A stretch of 64,000 nt of DNA, taken from NCBI RefSeq assembly GCF_013315695.1, contig NZ_CP054353.1, one strand, 5' to 3'. Shown in pieces: positions 3,326 to 61,162 of the stretch (positions are counted from its first letter, which is position 1; the number at the start of each line of letters is the position of its first letter). The position numbers and the translations under genes were made by a program. The notes below the pieces were generated by a model. The model was not told where the DNA came from. It saw nothing but the letters and a program-made list of their open reading frames with translations, and did no database searches. The stretch is from Escherichia coli. Its GTDB lineage: Bacteria > Pseudomonadota > Gammaproteobacteria > Enterobacterales > Enterobacteriaceae.

Positions 3326-4520
<1,195 letters not shown>

Positions 4521-5808: not shown

Positions 5809-8100
5809 TTACCCTTCACGTTCTACCACTTTAATTTCCACCATGCCGATCCCGAGCTTACGCGGCGAGTGTCCGAGGATATTCCCTTCGTTGGTTGAGA
5901 CAGGTTCCGGCGGCACAATTACCAGTGTGTCGGCATCGGTTGGGTTATCGAAATGCAGTGTGGTGGTGGTCACTTCATTGCCCAGCACAAGAGTTTGTTC
6001 TTCATTGCCTACGCGTACCGGAATAGGACGGCTGGCGTTATTGCCGTATGCTTTGGCGGTAATCACCAGGTCAAATTTCTTCGGCAGCGGATGCTTGTAC
6101 TCGATTTTTACTTCATCGCCCAGCTGCGCGTTGGACCAGCGGCCCCACGACTCCGGACGGGAAATCCCGCGAAACTGTTTCACCTCTTCTGGCGCACCGG
6201 CGACGTTAAAGATGAAACTGTCGGCTTTGTAGCGAATATCGTTATCAACAATCTTCAGCGTATCGACATTGCCTTTGTAACGCGCCATGTCGATGACCGT
6301 ATCTTTAAATGCCGTTTTGCCCTTCCATGTTGTTTTGTCAACATGCTGAACAATTTGCTGACCGCCAAGCTGCCCCTGCGAGACACACCAGTCGGTGGAA
6401 AGTGCCAGTTCCGGAGCCCAGAGTTGTGCCATCTTGTAGCAACGGTCAACCCAGACGAAATTGTCGCGTGGAGCGAAATCGGCCAGCTGGAAACGCAGCG
6501 GTGCTGAGTATTCGCTTTCCGGCAGCGGTTCCACGCGTTTGTCTGAAACCCGCAACAGCAGCGGCAAACGGAAATGGCTACCCGAGAAGGCAATCATGTT
6601 TTTCTGCTGGTCGATGGTGAACTCTTTCATCTCTTTAGGGAATTTCCACAGGCGGATGATATCTGGCTTCCACGCCAATGTTTTCTCTTTGATATTGAGG
6701 AAGATTTCCGACATCGACTGCCCGGATAAACTGCTACGACCAAGTCCGAGATAGTTATCGCCACCGAGAATGTCCAGCACCGTCGCGCCGTTATCCATCG
6801 TGTTACGCTTCACTGCCAGCGTCTCTTGCTGCGGCTTGTCGCCACGAATGACAAAAAACAGGTTATTGCGATCCTGCTTATTGAGGTATTTCCACGCCGT
6901 GTTGTTCATCGCTAAATGGTCAGAAGAGACGACGATGACGGTATCTTTAAACCACGGTGACGCTTTGATTTTGTTGATAAACGTCGCGATGTTCTCCTGG
7001 CTGCAACTTACCGCGCTGAATGACTGATTAGGCTTACCGTCAAAATCATATTTTTTGCGGTTACAGGTGCGCGAGATAAAACCATCCGGGTGATGGGTAT
7101 CGACCGTCAGGGTAAACAGTGAGAATCGCTGACCTGAGCGGGAAAGCTCTTCAAACTTTTTCCACGCTTCATCGAGAACGGTATCGTCGTAGAATCCCCA
7201 GTCGTTGCGATAGTGCGGGTCGGCCACCACGCTTTTCAGCTCTTCTGAGCCGTATAAGTGGTCGAAGCCGTGCGATTTCAGGAACACATCTTTACCGGCA
7301 AAACGCAGATTCGCGCCCTGCACGAAATAGTTCTGATAACCCGAGTTTTTCAGGATATCGCCCAGACAGATGTTCTGCGGGAAGAAGCTGGAGACAGAGG
7401 CGGAGGCGTTGCCTTCAAAGGGGGCAAACAGCGGTATGCCGCACTGAGAAGCCACCATGCCCGCAATCGTGTAATCCGTTCCTGGCAGCTGCTGCGTGTG
7501 GCTGAAATCCAGGCCTTCATTTTTCAACGCGCCCAGTTCAGGCGTGAGATCCGGGAAAGCTTCGTTATCAAAATAGGTTCGCTCGAGACTTTCGCCGTAG
7601 ATATAAACCAGGTTGAGTTTCGGGTCAGGGATAGTTTTCGACGGCTCTTTATAATAAGCCGCAAAGTCCGGGTCGCCGTCGCGTGACTGGGATTTCACCA
7701 GTTCCGTTATCTGACGAAATGCCGGGCTGGCATCCACTGAACCCAGCGCCAGTAAGAGCGCCAGCAGGCTGTAACCAAAATGGTGCGGATGATGACGACG
7801 ACGGCGCAGGATCCAGCCCAGCGCACCGAACACCGCTGTCAGCCCCAGCACAATGCCGATACCCGGCAGGATGTATTTGCTGACGCCAGCACCGGTCAGG
7901 CTGTTGGTTAAGGTATAGAGAACCGCGTCGTTAATACCATCGCCAGTAAAATAGTCGCTGGCAAACAGGGTGATATTTAAAACGACAAATAGCCCCAGCA
8001 CCGTTAATGTGGCTGCAAACCACCAGGTGTTACGTCCCGCTTTCCATGCGTAAATCAGCACAGAGGCGAGAAAAAGGGCGAAAGAGAGTAGTTCTGACAA
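5809..8100 (-). CDS. opgB: Phosphoglycerol transferase I (osmoregulated periplasmic glucan biosynthesis)
   Basis: 763-aa ORF, N-terminal TM helices plus sulfatase-like domain; matches MdoB/OpgB length. Confidence 0.9.
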
Positions 8101-12137: not shown

Positions 12138-12863
12138 ATGTTGCCAGGATGCTGCAAAAATGGAATTGTTATCAGTAAAATACCTGTTATGCAAGCAGGG
12201 TTAAAAGAGGTCATGAGGACTCACTTCCCTGAATATGAAATAATATCCAGCGCCTCTGCGGAGGACCTTACCTTATTACAATTACGTCGTTCCGGATTAG
12301 TCATTGCTGATTTGGCCGGTGAAAGTGAAGATCCACGTTCCGTTTGTGAGCATTATTACTCTTTAATCTCACAATATCGGGAAATTCACTGGGTTTTCAT
12401 GGTGTCACGCTCCTGGTATTCCCAGGCAGTAGAATTGCTCATGTGCCCTACGGCGACGTTATTGTCTGATGTTGAACCCATTGAGAATCTGGTCAAGACC
12501 GTACGTTCCGGCAATACGCACTCAGAGCGTATCAGCGCCATGCTGACCTCTCCGGCAATGACTGAAACTCATGATTTTAGCTATCGCTCCGTCATTCTCA
12601 CTCTTTCAGAGCGCAAGGTACTGCGGCTATTAGGTAAAGGATGGGGCATCAACCAGATAGCTTCATTGCTTAAGAAAAGTAATAAAACTATTAGCGCCCA
12701 AAAAAACAGTGCGATGCGTCGACTGGCAATTCACAGCAACGCTGAAATGTATGCATGGATAAATAGCGCGCAGGGTGCAAGAGAACTTAACTTGCCTTCT
12801 GTTTATGGAGATGCCGCAGAATGGAACACAGCCGAATTAAGAAGAGAAATGTCGCACTCATAG
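12138..12863 (+). CDS. yjjQ: LuxR-family transcriptional regulator
   Basis: 241-aa ORF with C-terminal LuxR-type HTH; AT-rich gene preceded by a long AT-rich intergenic region. Confidence 0.85.
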
Positions 12864-13498
12864 AAAAATGCGTCATGAGTCGTATCGGTATTGAGAGTTT
12901 ATTCAGAAAGTTTGCAGGTAACCCTTATAAGCTCCATACCTATACCAGTCAGGAGTCATTTCAGGATGCCATGTCGCGGATCTCGTTTGCAGCGGTCATT
13001 TTTTCTTTTTCTGCCATGAGAAGTGCGCGCAGAGAGGGATTATCCTGCCTGACTGAACTGGCGATTAAGTTTCCGCGTACCCGGCGTTTAGTTATTGCGG
13101 ATGATGATATTGAAGCTCGGCTGATTGGTTCATTATCGCCATCACCGCTGGACGGTGTATTAAGTAAAGCGTCAACGCTGGAGATTTTTCATCAGGAACT
13201 CTTTTTGTCATTAAATGGTGTACGTCAGGCGACCGATCGACTGAACAATCAGTGGTACATTAACCAAAGCCGGACGTTAAGCCCGACGGAGAGAGAAATA
13301 TTGCGCTTTATGTCGCGTGGCTACTCAATGACACAAATTGCCGAGCAGCTTAAACGCAATATCAAAACGATCCGTGCACATAAATTTAATGTGATGTCGA
13401 AACTGGGCGTCAGTTCTGATGCAGGGTTGTTGGAGGCCGCAGATATTCTGTTATGTATGCGGCATTGCGAAACAAGTAATGTGTTGCATCCTTATTAA
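12821..13498 (+). CDS. bglJ: LuxR-family regulator BglJ (partner of RcsB)
   Basis: 225-aa [23 protein letters not shown]... overlapping yjjQ 3' end; C-terminal LuxR HTH. Confidence 0.85.
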
Positions 13499-14464: not shown

Positions 14465-14701
14465 ATGTTGCAACGTACGCTGGGCAGTGGCTGGGGAGTG
14501 TTGCTGCCGGGATTGCTGATTGCAGGGCTGATGTATGCGGATTTATCGCCGGATCAATGGCGGATTGTCATTCTGATGGGATTGGTATTGACGCCGGTGA
14601 TGCTGTATCACAAACAGTTACGGCATTACGTTTTGCTACCATCGTGCCTGGCGCTTATTGCTGGCATCATGCTGATGATAATGAATTTGAATCAGGGGTG
14701 A
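14465..14701 (+). CDS. yjjZ: Small membrane protein YjjZ
   Basis: 78-aa ORF from ATG 14465 (MLQRTLGSGWGVLLPGLLIAGLMY...); track ORF starts further upstream. Confidence 0.7.
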   Translation: MLQRTLGSGWGVLLPGLLIAGLMYADLSPDQWRIVILMGLVLTPVMLYHKQLRHYVLLPSCLALIAGIMLMIMNLNQG

Positions 14702-14739
14702 TAAAACAGTGAGGAGACAAGAAAAGAAGTAAAGATAAT

Positions 14740-14826
14740 TGGTGCGAGGGGGGGGACTTGAACCCCCACGTCCGTAAGGACACTAACACCTGAAGCTAGC
14801 GCGTCTACCAATTCCGCCACCTTCGC
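14740..14826 (-). tRNA. leuV: tRNA-Leu (CAG), tandem copy 1
   Basis: Reverse complement reads GCGAAGGTGGCGGAATTGGTAGACGCGCTAGCTTCAGGTGTTAGTGTCCTTACGGACGTGGGGGTTCAAGTCCCCCCCCTCGCACCA, 87 nt; gene-name assignment among the copies is arbitrary. Confidence 0.95.
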
Positions 14827-14860
14827 ACAGTCATCTTACTTTTTTTGATATCGCCTCGTT

Positions 14861-14947
14861 TGGTGCGAGGGGGGGGACTTGAACCCCCACGTCCGTAAGG
14901 ACACTAACACCTGAAGCTAGCGCGTCTACCAATTCCGCCACCTTCGC
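14861..14947 (-). tRNA. leuP: tRNA-Leu (CAG), tandem copy 2
   Basis: Identical 87-nt sequence and identical 34-bp spacer to copy 1. Confidence 0.95.
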
Positions 14948-14981
14948 ACAGTCATCTTACTTTTTTTGATATCGCCTCGTT

Positions 14982-15069
14982 TGGTGCGAGGGGGGGGGAC
15001 TTGAACCCCCACGTCCGTAAGGACACTAACACCTGAAGCTAGCGCCTCTACCAATTCCGCCACCTTCGC
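14982..15069 (-). tRNA. tRNA-Leu (CAG)-like, divergent tandem copy 3 (88 nt)
   Basis: Same unit but with a 9-C run instead of 8 in the T-stem/acceptor region and one D-arm substitution (GGTAGAGGCGC versus GGTAGACGCGC). Confidence 0.75.
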
Positions 15070-15097
15070 CCAGTGCGAGCAATATCAACGTGGTTTT

Positions 15098-15184
15098 TGG
15101 TGCGAGGGGGGGGACTTGAACCCCCACGTCCGTAAGGACACTAACACCTGAAGCTAGCGCGTCTACCAATTCCGCCACCTTCGC
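15098..15184 (-). tRNA. leuQ: tRNA-Leu (CAG), promoter-proximal copy 4
   Basis: Identical 87-nt tRNA-Leu sequence; 28-bp spacer to copy 3. Confidence 0.95.
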
Positions 15185-15225: not shown

Positions 15226-15253
15226 ATTCTAGTGGTTTTCAGCTTTTCGTCAA
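15226..15253 (-). promoter_or_regulatory. Sigma-70 promoter of the tRNA-Leu operon with GC-rich discriminator
   Basis: Minus strand reads TTGACG-16 bp-TAGAAT followed by GCGCCTCC; an AT-rich tract lies further upstream. Confidence 0.65.
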
Positions 15254-15383
15254 TAGTTAATTATCGACAGAGGTGTAATTGCTGGAAAAATGTCCATCAG
15301 CGGATTGTGGATAATTCGTTTGTCGGTCAGATAAGGCATGTACGCCGCATCCGACACGGTATGCGGCGACATATATCAGATAC

Positions 15384-56345: not shown

Positions 56346-57782
56346 TTACTCCTGCGAAACGTCATCCCACGCGTCTGGAGAAAGCTGGCGACCGATCTCC
56401 GGATAACGCAACGGATCAAACACCGGGCGCACGCCGAGTTTACGCTGGCGTAGATAATCACTGGCAATGGTATGAACCACAGGCGAGAGCAGTAATATGG
56501 CGGTCAAATTGGTAATAGCCATGCAGGCCATTATGATATCTGCCAGTTGCCACATCAGCGGAAGACTTAGCAAGGTACCGCCGATGACCGTTGCGAAGGT
56601 GCAGATCCGCAGACACCAGATCGCTTTAGGGTTGTTCAGGCGTAAGAAGAAGAGATTGTTTTCGGCATAAATGTAGTTGGCAACGATGGAGCTGAAGGCA
56701 AACAGAATAACCACGAGGGTAACAAACTCCGCACCCCAGGAACCCATTAACACCCGCATCGCCTTCTGGATAAGCTGAATACCTTCCAGCGGCATGTAGG
56801 TTGTGCCGTTACCCGCCAGTAATATCAGCATGGCGCTTGCCGTACAGATGACCAGGGTGTCGATAAAAATGCCAATCATCTGGACAATTCCTTGCGCTGC
56901 CGGATGCGGAGGCCAGGACGCCGCTGCCGCTGCCGCTGCCGCGTTTGGCGTCGACCCCATTCCTGCCTCATTGGAAAACATACTGCGCTGAAAACCGTTA
57001 GTAATCGCCTGGCTTAAGGTATATCCCGCCGCGCCGCCTGCCGCTTCCTGCCAGCCAAAAGCACTCTCAAAAATAGACCAAATGACGTGGGGAAGTTGCC
57101 CGATATTCATTACGCAAATTACCAGGCTGGTCAGTACCCAGATTATCGCCATCAACGGGACAAACCCCTGCATGAGCCGGGCGACGCCATGAAGACCGCG
57201 AGTGATTGCCAGCAGAGCAAAGACAGCGAGAATAATGCCTGTCACCAGCGGAGGAAAATCAAAAGAAAAACTCAGGGCGCGGGCAACGGCGTTCGCCTGA
57301 ACTCCGCTGAAAATTATGCCGTAAGCGATGAGCAAAAAGAGGGCGAACAGAACGCCCATCCAGCGCATCCCCAGCCCGCGCGCCATATACCATGCCGGTC
57401 CGCCACGAAACTGCCCATTAACGTCACGTTCTTTATAAAGTTGTGCAAGGGAACATTCGGTAAACGAGGTCGCCATGCCGATAAACGCGGCAACCCACAT
57501 CCAGAAGACGGCACCTGGTCCACCGGCGGTAATAGCCAGCGCAACGCCAGCCAGGTTGCCGCTACCCACGCGCGCCGCAAGACTGGTACACAATGACTGA
57601 AATGAGGTTAAACCGCCTGGCTGTGGATGAATGCTATTTTTAAGACTTTTGCCAAACTGGCGGATGTAGCGAAACTGCACAAATCCGGTGCGAAAAGTGA
57701 ACCAACAACCTGCGCCGAAGAGCAGGTAAATCATTACCGATCCCCAAAGGACGCTGTTAATAAAGGAGAAAAAATCTGGCAT
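56346..57782 (-). CDS. yaaJ: Alanine/glycine:cation symporter family transporter
   Basis: 478-aa multi-TM ORF containing a poly-Ala stretch. Confidence 0.9.
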   Translation of the reverse strand: MPDFFSFINSVLWGSVMIYLLFGAGCWFTFRTGFVQFRYIRQFGKSLKNSIHPQPGGLTSFQSLCTSLAARVGSGNLAGVALAITAGGPGAVFWMWVAAFIGMATSFTECSLAQLYKERDVNGQFRGGPAWYMARGLGMRWMGVLFALFLLIAYGIIFSGVQANAVARALSFSFDFPPLVTGIILAVFALLAITRGLHGVARLMQGFVPLMAIIWVLTSLVICVMNIGQLPHVIWSIFESAFGWQEAAGGAAGYTLSQAITNGFQRSMFSNEAGMGSTPNAAAAAAAASWPPHPAAQGIVQMIGIFIDTLVICTASAMLILLAGNGTTYMPLEGIQLIQKAMRVLMGSWGAEFVTLVVILFAFSSIVANYIYAENNLFFLRLNNPKAIWCLRICTFATVIGGTLLSLPLMWQLADIIMACMAITNLTAILLLSPVVHTIASDYLRQRKLGVRPVFDPLRYPEIGRQLSPDAWDDVSQE

Positions 57783-59736: not shown

Positions 59737-61162
59737 TAATGCCAGTCAGTTAAGCAACTGACTGGCTCTTTTTCGGGGCTGTGGGGTATTTCCAGGGCCT
59801 CTCCTTTACCACTCTCGGGAAGGCCCTTTCCCTTCTTGTCGGTAATTTCACAAGTTGTCCCATACTTGCAAGATCGCGCATCAGCTCCGGTATACGTCCC
59901 GGTGAAGCGCCCTGCAATGTCATCAGCATTCTCATCACCATTCCGCATGATTCTGAGAAACTCAGTTGATTCGGCCAGTAACCTTTCAGATGTTCCGCCA
60001 TTTTAATCATCTGATATCTCACCAGATTATAAGCCAGTAAGACACCCCACAGCTCTTGCTCCACAAGCTCCGGTTTTTTACTTCTCAGCGTCAGCCTGCT
60101 CAGTTGCATCGTCTGTTTTATCTCCCTGTATCCCAGTTCGATTTCCCAGCGATGACTGTACAGATCCGCCATTTCTCCTCCGGGGAAGCGCATGGCGTCC
60201 GTCATCGACGTCAGCAGATGGCAGACTTTTCCTTTGCGCGTCACGGTCAGCAGGCGGGCTGTCACTTCATTTCCCAGTCCCGGCCACTTTTTTCGTGCCT
60301 GCGGGCTGGTTTTCAGCTTCACCAGATGATCGCCTTTACCCAGTTTTCTGATCTCTTCATATTGCGCTCCCTTTCTGAGAGGTATCATCCAGTGGCGGTG
60401 TTCTCCCGCCAGGCTCCAGGCATTTAACAGTCCCAGTGAGTAATAACCTTTATCCATTAACGTCAGAGTGTTATCGCCGGTTTGTTCTATAAGTTGCTCA
60501 GCAAGCTCATTTTCGCTGTTCTTCATCGTGCCGAAGGCTGCAGCCGTCAGCAGATGGCTGGTCAGTTCCATCTGGCAGACCATTTTGACCTGCGGGTAGA
60601 GCGCCGGGTTCCCGGCATGTGTCTGGCGGGGGAAGGCTGCATCGTTCTCTGGTGTATCCGGTGTGCGCCAGAACACACCATCGATGGCCAGCAGGGTCAG
60701 GCCGCACCAGTGCGGATGCGGCGTGGCGTTATGCCAGAGCTGCGCTGTTTTCGTGAACACGCGGCGGACAGCCTCACTTCCCAGGCGCTGGCGGGCCTGA
60801 ATAACGGCACTGGGGGCAACGAAGGGGCGATTGCCCGGCAGCATGATGTCCAGGCGATTCACAATCTGGTGAAGAGGTTCTTTACGCTCAAGCGCCATGC
60901 CAACAATACACCAGACCATCATTTCGAGGGGAAGACGGCGCTTGCGTAGCGTTACAGTACCTGATTCGGCAAGGCAACGAGAGATGAGTTCGGGGTCGAG
61001 GTAATCCCCCAGAGAAGTCAGTGGGTTACGCAGAGAATCGTAACGGGATACCAGATCAAGAGCCTGTCCAATGTGCATAAAAAAATCCGGAAACAAGTGA
61101 GCGTTTCCGGATTCTTACACAGCCACTGGATCGGTCAACTGATCCTTAACTGATCGGCATTA
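59737..61162 (-). mobile_element. IS4 insertion sequence, complete (1426 bp), flanked by 12-bp direct repeats
   Basis: 18-bp terminal inverted repeats taatgccagtcagttaag / cttaactgatcggcatta; identical 12-mer ccccgggcgggg at 59725-59736 and 61163-61174. Confidence 0.9.
59750..61078 (-). CDS. insG: IS4 transposase (DDE, IS4 family)
   Basis: 442-aa from [16 protein letters not shown]...; contains HRWEIE...YREIK motif of IS4-family transposases. Confidence 0.9.

What the first reader, a model, noticed from the sequence alone, without database searches (positions are those of the whole stretch)
14740..15184. Four tandem tRNA-Leu(CAG) copies, one of them divergent
The operon contains four units; my recollection is that K-12 has three (leuQ, leuP, leuV). 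Copies 1, 2 and 4 are identical 87-mers; copies 1-3 are spaced exactly 121 bp apart, suggesting a unit duplication. Copy 3 has an extra C in the T-stem/acceptor run (9 versus 8) and a C to G change in the D arm, so it may be a compromised tRNA, or a homopolymer error. Copy-number change in a major tRNA-Leu operon could affect CUG decoding capacity.
Basis: partly seen in the sequence, partly recalled or inferred. Interest (0 to 1): 0.45.

Follow-up and report, generated by a model that had tools for sequence, protein, structure and literature searches.

The report
Extra leucine tRNA gene copy
This E. coli strain carries four instead of the usual three tandem genes for its main leucine tRNA, a rare but recurrent and ordinary repeat-number variant, and the odd third copy is at least partly a probable sequencing error.

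Summary
Window 14740-15184 (minus strand) holds four tRNA-Leu(CAG) genes: three identical 87-mers and one 88-mer. The window is 100% identical to E. coli MSB1_4I (NZ_LR898874.1), and the locus is the leuQPV operon between rsmC and yjjZ. K-12 has three genes there.

The fourth gene is an exact 121-bp tandem duplication (tRNA plus 34-bp spacer). Among 5,426 complete E. coli genomes, 10 have four copies and 36 have two. The four-copy genomes carry different flanking alleles and different crossover products. This is recurrent unequal recombination between repeats, a known process. The strain's nearest relative (AF3, 13 SNPs over 64 kb) has two copies.

The divergent copy sits at the leuP position.
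- **9-C run:** it recurs in at least 24 other assemblies and clusters by sequencing project. It appears in all three copies of one genome and in an alternative K-12 MG1655 assembly. It is probably a homopolymer miscall.
- **C-to-G change (standard position 23):** it breaks the G12-C23 D-stem pair and was found in no other sequence searched. It is either a private mutation or a consensus error; only the reads can decide.

Either way, three canonical copies remain. Interest is low.

The parts
15226..15253 (-). Predicted sigma-70 promoter of the operon: TTGACG, 16-nt spacer, TAGAAT, then a GC-rich stretch (GCGCCTCC)
   Evidence: Consensus scan, 10 of 12 matches; sequence read. The only strong promoter-like site upstream of the array. 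Function not tested here.
15098..15184 (-). First gene of the operon (leuQ position), canonical 87-nt tRNA-Leu(CAG)
   Evidence: (48.5 bits); identical to K-12 leuQ.
15070..15097 (-). 28-nt spacer 1 (AAAACCACGTTGATATTGCTCGCACTGG), same as the K-12 leuQ-leuP spacer
14982..15069 (-). Second gene (leuP position), divergent 88-nt copy. It has C24G (standard C23G; + strand 15046), a 9-C run (+ strand G-run 14990-14998), and lacks the usual leuP C48T (+ strand 15022).
   Evidence: (33.2 bits; G12-G23 flagged as a non-pair; 1-nt insertion in the T arm).
14948..14981 (-). 34-nt spacer 2 (AACGAGGCGATATCAAAAAAAGTAAGATGACTGT), first occurrence in transcript order
   Evidence: same as the K-12 leuP-leuV spacer.
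14861..14947 (-). Third gene, canonical 87-nt tRNA-Leu(CAG). It lies in one of the two exact 121-bp units; which unit is the extra one cannot be told.
14827..14860 (-). 34-nt spacer 2, second identical occurrence (mark of the duplication)
14740..14826 (-). Fourth and last gene (leuV position), canonical 87-nt tRNA-Leu(CAG)
14739..14980 (.). Two exact tandem 121-bp units (tRNA plus spacer 2); three-copy genomes have one unit fewer
   Evidence: two copies at 100%; alignment to CFT073 and K-12 shows a 121-bp gap.
14680..14739 (-). Region downstream of the last tRNA. It has no intrinsic terminator hairpin; termination is reported as Rho-dependent in K-12.
   Evidence: No terminator-like site on this strand; PMC2190699.

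Best explanation
This is the leuQPV operon of E. coli, one promoter driving tandem genes for the major leucine tRNA that reads CUG. In strain MSB1_4I it has gained a fourth gene through a 121-bp tandem duplication of one tRNA-plus-spacer unit. The duplication arose by unequal homologous recombination between the near-identical 87-nt tRNA repeats at the leuP and leuV positions. The same process, run the other way, deletes a unit. The locus therefore behaves as a small, reversible copy-number polymorphism (2, 3 or 4 genes), with three as the strongly predominant state. The divergent copy at the leuP position is not a special feature of the duplication. Its extra C is most likely a homopolymer miscall. 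Its C-to-G change is a private change of this one record; if real, it weakens the 3-bp D stem and makes that copy a poor or dead tRNA. The strain then still has three canonical genes in the operon, the usual functional number. Shown here: the anatomy, synteny, population frequencies, independent origins, and recurrence of 9-C calls. Inferred: the recombination mechanism, the artefact status of the 9-C run, and the functional effect of C23G.
For: - **Identity and synteny:** the window matches NZ_LR898874.1 at 100%, and the array lies between rsmC and yjjZ/fhuF, as leuQPV does in K-12.
- **Exact duplication:** there are two identical 121-bp units, and spacer 2 occurs twice.
- **Census of 5,426 complete genomes:** spacer2-tRNA-spacer2 occurs in 9 genomes and spacer1-tRNA-spacer1 in 1 natural strain, giving 10 with four copies. 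Leader-tRNA-spacer2 occurs in 22 and spacer1-tRNA-downstream flank in 14, giving 36 with two copies.
- **Independent origins:** the nine spacer-2-type four-copy genomes carry seven different FhuF proteins. They show three different patterns at position 48 of the inner copies (T,C; C,C; T,T). This fits independent crossovers on either side of that site.
- **Nearest relative:** AF3 differs by 13 SNPs and one 6-bp indel over 64 kb, yet has two canonical copies. Relative to the window it has a 237-bp deletion covering the variant copy.
- **9-C as an artefact class:** an exact 9-C plus spacer 2 occurs in at least 24 other genomes among the 60 rows listed, 12 of them from one Panama project. Strain J3 has 9 C in all three copies. 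An alternative K-12 MG1655 assembly has 9 C in leuV where the reference has 8. Among four-copy assemblies, 9 C occurs only in inner copies.
- **C23G is outside natural variation:** it has 0 other hits in 5,426 E. coli genomes, 0 in metagenome contigs and 0 in species-representative genomes. With that base left free, 164 matches from diverse bacteria gave C 163 times, T once and G never.
- **Model score:** the covariance-model score falls from 48.5 to 33.2 bits.
Against: - No reads were available, so neither the copy number nor the two variants in copy 3 are independently verified.
- The window is otherwise clean against AF3, with no single-base indel in about 63.5 kb. The 9-C run cannot therefore be put down to a generally noisy assembly.
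- Two changes in one 88-nt gene are unexpected for real neutral mutation, given a divergence of 2 in 10,000 from the nearest relative (expected about 0.02 substitutions). They are equally unexplained as random consensus errors in a polished genome.
- G24 lies only 24 nt from the unique spacer 1, where short-read polishing should work. This slightly favours it being real.
- The recombination mechanism is inferred from its products, not observed.
Confidence: 0.8

Rival explanations
1. Compensatory duplication. The gene at the leuP position was truly crippled (C23G and/or +1 C), and the duplication of the leuV unit was selected because it restored three working genes. The sister isolate AF3 dealt with the same defect by deleting the bad copy.
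For: There are three canonical copies plus one defective copy in the window. AF3's 237-bp deletion removes exactly spacer 1, the variant copy, spacer 2 and one tRNA length, as a leuQ x third-copy crossover in a four-copy ancestor would. The operon is matured by RNase P alone (PMC2190699), so a misfolded inner tRNA could also hinder release of its upstream neighbour (inference). Loss of a tRNA gene is known to be compensated by duplication in Pseudomonas (PMC7661048).
Against: Other four-copy genomes have no defective copy beyond 9-C calls, so duplication occurs without such a trigger. Thirty-six genomes live with two copies, which argues for weak selection on one copy. The 9-C run is a recurrent artefact. 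There is no read support for G24.
Confidence: 0.1
2. The four-copy array is itself an assembly error, and the true genome has three or two units.
For: Tandem repeats are error-prone. The nearest relative has two copies. Assemblies of the same K-12 strain disagree inside this array. The variant copy carries suspicious changes.
Against: The array is under 450 bp, so single long reads should span it (general knowledge; the sequencing platform of this assembly was not found). Eight other assemblies from different laboratories show the same four-copy architecture. The two 121-bp units are exact. The rest of the window shows no indel noise. The K-12 disagreement concerns bases, not unit number.
Confidence: 0.07
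3. Copy 3 is a real, functional variant tRNA with altered properties, for example different modification, stability or synthetase kinetics, maintained by selection.
For: It still passes the Rfam tRNA threshold (33.2 against 29). ARAGORN calls it, and PGAP annotates it as tRNA-Leu with no pseudogene flag in the table. It keeps the anticodon CAG, A73 and the encoded CCA.
Against: G at this position is absent from 164 homologous genes of diverse bacteria and from all other E. coli genomes searched. It creates a G-G mismatch in a 3-bp stem with no compensating change at position 12. The tolerated variants seen in the middle gene elsewhere are all G-C to G-U transitions: C48T, C26T and C24T.
Confidence: 0.03

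Closest known systems
leuQPV (leuQ-leuP-leuV) tRNA-Leu1 operon of E. coli K-12
   Same: Same chromosomal site (between rsmC and yjjZ/fhuF), same promoter hexamers, same two spacers and same canonical 87-nt tRNA sequence. There is no intrinsic terminator, in line with the Rho-dependent termination and RNase P-only processing reported for K-12 (PMC2190699).
   Different: Four genes instead of three, through one extra tRNA-plus-spacer-2 unit. The gene at the leuP position lacks the K-12 C48T mark and carries C24G and a 9-C run.
Four-copy leuQPV variants in other complete E. coli genomes (RIVM_C036204, UTAK-13, AF10, AF14, 873.10, ECOCN22, E100341, EC7072022BGR)
   Same: Identical architecture: Q, spacer 1, tRNA, spacer 2, tRNA, spacer 2, V. 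Three of the nine spacer-2-type four-copy genomes, this one included, show 9-C calls in inner copies only.
   Different: Different flanking alleles and different states at position 48 of the inner copies. None has G at position 24.
Gain and loss of tRNA genes by within-genome duplication and deletion
   Same: Copy-number change of a tRNA gene by recombination between direct repeats, which is reversible and recurrent. Withers et al. 2006 (RNA 12:933) could not be read here. It is listed in PMC7661048 among phylogenetic studies of tRNA gene loss, gain and anticodon switching. That it concerns E. coli tRNA gene duplication and deletion is known here only from its title and my recollection.
   Different: The Pseudomonas laboratory cases (PMC7661048, PMC10954465) involve very large duplications, one of about 192 kb. 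Here the unit is 121 bp, inside one operon.

Membership tests
Bacterial class II tRNA-Leu(CAG) gene (Rfam RF00005 tRNA) | Cloverleaf match above the curated threshold, with anticodon CAG and a long variable arm | tested here: met
   All four copies: ARAGORN Leu(cag); 48.5, 48.5, 48.5 and 33.2 bits against a gathering score of 29.
Bacterial class II tRNA-Leu(CAG) gene (Rfam RF00005 tRNA) | Intact D stem (G10-C25, C11-G24, G12-C23) | tested here: not met
   Met for copies 1, 2 and 4. Not met for copy 3: C23G gives a G12-G23 mismatch, flagged in the cmscan NC line. G is never seen at this site in 164 homologues.
Bacterial class II tRNA-Leu(CAG) gene (Rfam RF00005 tRNA) | 5-bp T stem with 7-nt loop, stacked directly on a 7-bp acceptor stem | tested here: inconclusive
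   Copy 3 has one extra C, which must sit as an 8-nt T loop or as a bulge at the 65/66 junction. The base may be a sequencing error.
Bacterial class II tRNA-Leu(CAG) gene (Rfam RF00005 tRNA) | Discriminator A73 and encoded CCA end | tested here: met
   All four copies end in ...TCGC-A-CCA.
Bacterial class II tRNA-Leu(CAG) gene (Rfam RF00005 tRNA) | Processed by RNase P and charged by leucyl-tRNA synthetase | not testable with these tools
   Needs tRNA sequencing, northern blots or in vitro assays.
E. coli leuQPV operon | Position between rsmC and yjjZ/fhuF, transcribed away from rsmC | tested here: met
   RefSeq annotation of the source record and of K-12.
E. coli leuQPV operon | Single upstream sigma-70 promoter and no intrinsic terminator | tested here: met
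   TTGACG-16-TAGAAT at 15253..15226, and no terminator-like hairpin after the last gene. These are consensus matches only; activity was not tested.
E. coli leuQPV operon | Three genes in the order Q, spacer 1, P, spacer 2, V | tested here: not met
   Four genes, with spacer 2 and a tRNA repeated. This state is shared by 10 of 5,426 genomes.
Tandem duplication by unequal homologous recombination | Exact head-to-tail repeat whose ends lie in pre-existing direct repeats, with no novel junction sequence | tested here: met
   Two exact 121-bp units; every subsequence also exists in three-copy genomes.
Tandem duplication by unequal homologous recombination | Reciprocal deletion products and recurrent independent events in the population | tested here: met
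   36 two-copy genomes of both possible junction types. Four-copy genomes carry seven FhuF proteins and three crossover patterns.
Tandem duplication by unequal homologous recombination | Dependence on RecA or on replication slippage | not testable with these tools
   Needs genetics.

The most novel reading that the evidence does not exclude
The copy at the leuP position is truly defective, and the extra unit is a selected repair of tRNA-Leu(CAG) dosage. This operon is cut apart only by RNase P, so a misfolded inner tRNA could also trap the upstream leuQ in an unprocessed precursor. That would make the defect worse than the loss of one gene. One descendant (MSB1_4I) would then have compensated by duplicating the leuV unit, and another (AF3) by deleting the bad copy. 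This would be a natural, clone-level example of tRNA gene-set repair.
Probability: 0.07. Interest if true: 0.45.

Novelty: already known. Interest (0 to 1): 0.12.

Why it matters
It matters little for biology. Gain and loss of units in tandem tRNA arrays by recombination between repeats is an established process, and this strain keeps three canonical genes. There are two practical points.

First, the census gives a baseline for this locus in complete E. coli genomes: about 0.2% have four copies, about 0.7% have two, and the rest are taken to have three. Two near-identical clinical isolates differ by two units, so the change is fast relative to point mutation.

Second, the 8-C run in tRNA-Leu(CAG) is a recurrent site of +1 miscalls in deposited 'complete' genomes. 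These include an assembly of K-12 MG1655 and whole projects. Single-base variants inside this array should not be interpreted without reads.

Tried and rejected
- **Short megablast queries:** queries across the C-run returned 'No match' even to the source genome, probably because the low-complexity filter left no 28-base seed. I replaced them with a blastn search.
- **Identity bands:** these are distorted by the tool joining overlapping pieces. I used the E-value of an exact 84/84 piece (1e-34) instead, so the count of 9-C genomes is a lower bound from the 60 rows listed.
- **Minimum-free-energy folding:** it is uninformative here. Even the canonical tRNA does not fold into the cloverleaf as its MFE structure, and z-scores are weak. 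The cloverleaf energy comparison (-33.2 against -30.5 kcal/mol) is only indicative, because the model structure includes the natural A5-C68 mismatch.
- **Literature:** searches for the strain name and accession found nothing on how MSB1_4I was sequenced. Withers et al. 2006 is not held.
- **Natural G variant:** I considered that G at position 24 might occur naturally in other bacteria. This was rejected by the collection scans.
- **Single ancestral four-copy lineage:** I considered that the four-copy state might mark one lineage. This was rejected by the diversity of flanks and crossover patterns.

Full report
**What is there.**
ARAGORN finds four tRNA-Leu(CAG) genes on the minus strand at 14740-14826, 14861-14947, 14982-15069 and 15098-15184, and no other tRNA in the window. 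The Rfam tRNA model scores three of them at 48.5 bits and the one at 14982-15069 at 33.2 bits; the gathering score is 29. Three genes are identical 87-mers. The fourth is 88 nt. It has nine C instead of eight at the T-stem/acceptor junction, and G instead of C at tRNA position 24, which is standard position 23. In the model alignment the G creates a G12-G23 non-pair in the D stem, and the extra C appears as a one-base insertion in the T arm.

**Which locus it is.**
The window is 100% identical to the chromosome of E. coli MSB1_4I, a rectal-swab isolate from Australia (NZ_LR898874.1). The array lies between rsmC and yjjZ/fhuF. In K-12 MG1655 the same site holds leuQ, leuP and leuV.

In transcript order the K-12 operon reads leuQ, a 28-nt spacer, leuP, a 34-nt spacer, leuV. 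K-12 leuP differs from the other two genes by C48T in the variable arm.

The window reads Q, spacer 1, variant copy, spacer 2, canonical copy, spacer 2, canonical copy. The added material is therefore one exact 121-bp unit of tRNA plus spacer 2.

A promoter-like site, TTGACG-16-TAGAAT, lies upstream of the first gene at 15253..15226. No hairpin terminator follows the last gene. That fits published work on K-12: the operon is terminated in a Rho-dependent way and is cut into tRNAs by RNase P alone, without RNase E (PMC2190699).

**How common the four-copy state is.**
A tandem duplication creates no new junction. I therefore searched 5,426 complete E. coli genomes with short composite queries that only a changed array can match over 80% of their length.

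| Arrangement | Meaning | Genomes |
|---|---|---|
| spacer 2 - tRNA - spacer 2 | four copies | 9 (includes this strain) |
| spacer 1 - tRNA - spacer 1 | four copies | 1 natural strain |
| leader - tRNA - spacer 2 | two copies | 22 |
| spacer 1 - tRNA - downstream flank | two copies | 14 |

About 0.2% of genomes thus have four copies and about 0.7% have two. The rest are taken to have three; a one-copy form and five or more copies were not searched for separately.

I fetched all nine four-copy loci of the spacer 2 type. They carry seven different FhuF proteins. The two inner copies show three different patterns at position 48: T,C; C,C; and T,T. That is what independent unequal crossovers between the leuP and leuV repeats would give, with exchange points on either side of position 48. 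The mechanism is inferred from these products.

Three tandem copies are also seen in Yersinia, Citrobacter, Enterobacter, Klebsiella and E. albertii, and five in an Aeromonas.

**The nearest relative.**
A UK blood isolate, AF3 (NZ_OZ547117.1), differs from the window by 13 substitutions and one 6-bp indel over 64 kb. There is no single-base indel outside the array. AF3 has only two tRNA-Leu genes here, both canonical. Relative to the window it has a 237-bp deletion that removes the variant copy.

Within one clone the array therefore differs by two units. Unit number changes fast compared with point mutation. It also means no independent genome confirms the variant copy.

**The 9-C run.**
An exact match to the 9-C end followed by spacer 2 occurs in at least 24 other genomes among the 60 rows listed, and these cluster by project. 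Twelve come from one Panama river and wastewater study, and there are pairs from three other series.
- In the Panama strain J3, all three genes have nine C. That is not credible for the cell's major leucine tRNA.
- An alternative assembly of K-12 MG1655 (CP025268.1) has nine C in leuV and lacks the leuP C48T mark. The reference has eight C and the mark.
- Among the four-copy assemblies, 9-C calls occur in 4 of 18 inner copies and in none of 18 outer copies.

I conclude that the extra C is probably a homopolymer miscall in a repeat that is hard to polish. The caveat is that the rest of this window is free of such errors.

**The C-to-G change.**
This change is found in no other E. coli genome of the 5,426. 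It is also absent from 241 million metagenome records and from representative genomes of 100,044 species.

The base was C 163 times, T once (E. albertii leuP) and G never.

The variants the middle gene tolerates elsewhere are C48T, C26T in UTAK-13 and C24T in E. albertii. All turn a G-C pair into G-U. C-to-G instead gives a mismatch in a stem of only three pairs, with no compensating change.

If real, it should weaken the fold. It would probably also weaken recognition by LeuRS, which (from my general knowledge of tRNA-Leu identity, not tested here) depends on the tertiary structure of the D arm. It is not a recurrent error type, and it lies close to the unique spacer 1. I cannot tell a private mutation from a random consensus error, and I put the two at roughly even odds.

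Two changes in 88 nt are unexpected either way. From the divergence to AF3, the expected number of real substitutions in 88 nt is about 0.02 (inference).

**Consequence.**
Whatever the status of copy 3, three canonical genes remain under the one promoter. That is the usual number, and natural strains live with two to four. The suggested effect on CUG decoding is therefore small at most.

A more interesting reading is that the duplication compensates for a truly defective inner gene, whose misfolding could also hinder RNase P release of the upstream leuQ. The evidence does not exclude this, but nothing specific supports it. Other four-copy strains have no such defect.

**Verdict.**
This is a rare, recurrent, recombination-driven copy-number variant of a well-known tRNA operon, already annotated as four tRNA-Leu genes in RefSeq. 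Its odd copy is at least partly a probable sequencing artefact.

Noticed in passing
L012/L013 (NZ_OZ547117.1, isolate AF3), equivalent to window 14859-15095: The nearest relative of the window strain (13 SNPs over 64 kb) has only two tRNA-Leu genes at this locus, both canonical. One clone therefore spans two and four copies.
   Followed up: yes
L138 (NZ_CP025268.1, K-12 MG1655 alternative assembly) 406-492 and 527-614: This K-12 MG1655 assembly has leuP without the C48T mark and leuV with a 9-C run, unlike the reference NC_000913.3. Assemblies of one strain thus disagree inside this array.
   Followed up: partly
L135 (NZ_CP195984.1, strain J3) 5837-6162; rows H103-H109 and H133-H137: Twelve genomes from one Panama river and wastewater project carry the 9-C run at leuP. 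In J3 all three copies have it, which points to a systematic homopolymer error in that data set.
   Followed up: partly
L040 (E. albertii NBRC 107761) 12791-12877; L005 (UTAK-13) 1434-1520: The middle gene of the operon collects mild G-C to G-U changes in different lineages: C48T in the K-12, CFT073 and most other arrays read here, C24T plus C48T in E. albertii, and C26T plus C48T in UTAK-13. The outer genes stay invariant.
   Followed up: partly
identity bands; L139 (ETEC H10407) 406-492: About 410 of 5,429 records appear to have C rather than T at position 48 of the leuP-position gene. This was checked in H10407, AF10, AF14 and CP025268. It suggests gene conversion among the copies, polishing artefacts, or both.
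   Followed up: partly
window 15325-15364 (+): Weak Rfam match to naRNA4/CssrE (23.7 bits, far below the gathering score of 59.5) between the leu promoter and rsmC. It is probably a REP-type palindromic element.
   Followed up: no
window 56920-56925: A 6-bp stretch (GCCGCT) is present in the window and absent in AF3. By coordinate transfer it lies in yaaJ (alanine/glycine:cation symporter). It is the only indel outside the tRNA array.
   Followed up: no
window about 3390-4380 and about 59750-61100 (from AF3 annotation, colinear with the window): There is an IS5-like ISKpn26-family element between lgoT and lgoD, and an IS4 element between mog and satP. One of the 13 SNPs against AF3 (60829) falls inside the IS4 copy.
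   Followed up: no
L106 (Aeromonas lacus AE122) minus strand, pattern matches starting at 2411-2968: Five tandem genes carry the same D-arm and anticodon-arm sequence, showing that this tRNA array reaches higher copy numbers in other genera.
   Followed up: no
rows H227-H229: The laboratory strains Rosetta2-DE3, XL10-Gold and BL21-RIPL gave joined two-piece matches to the spacer1-tRNA-spacer1 query at a different chromosomal place, one next to a DNA-packaging gene. The cause was not examined.
   Followed up: no
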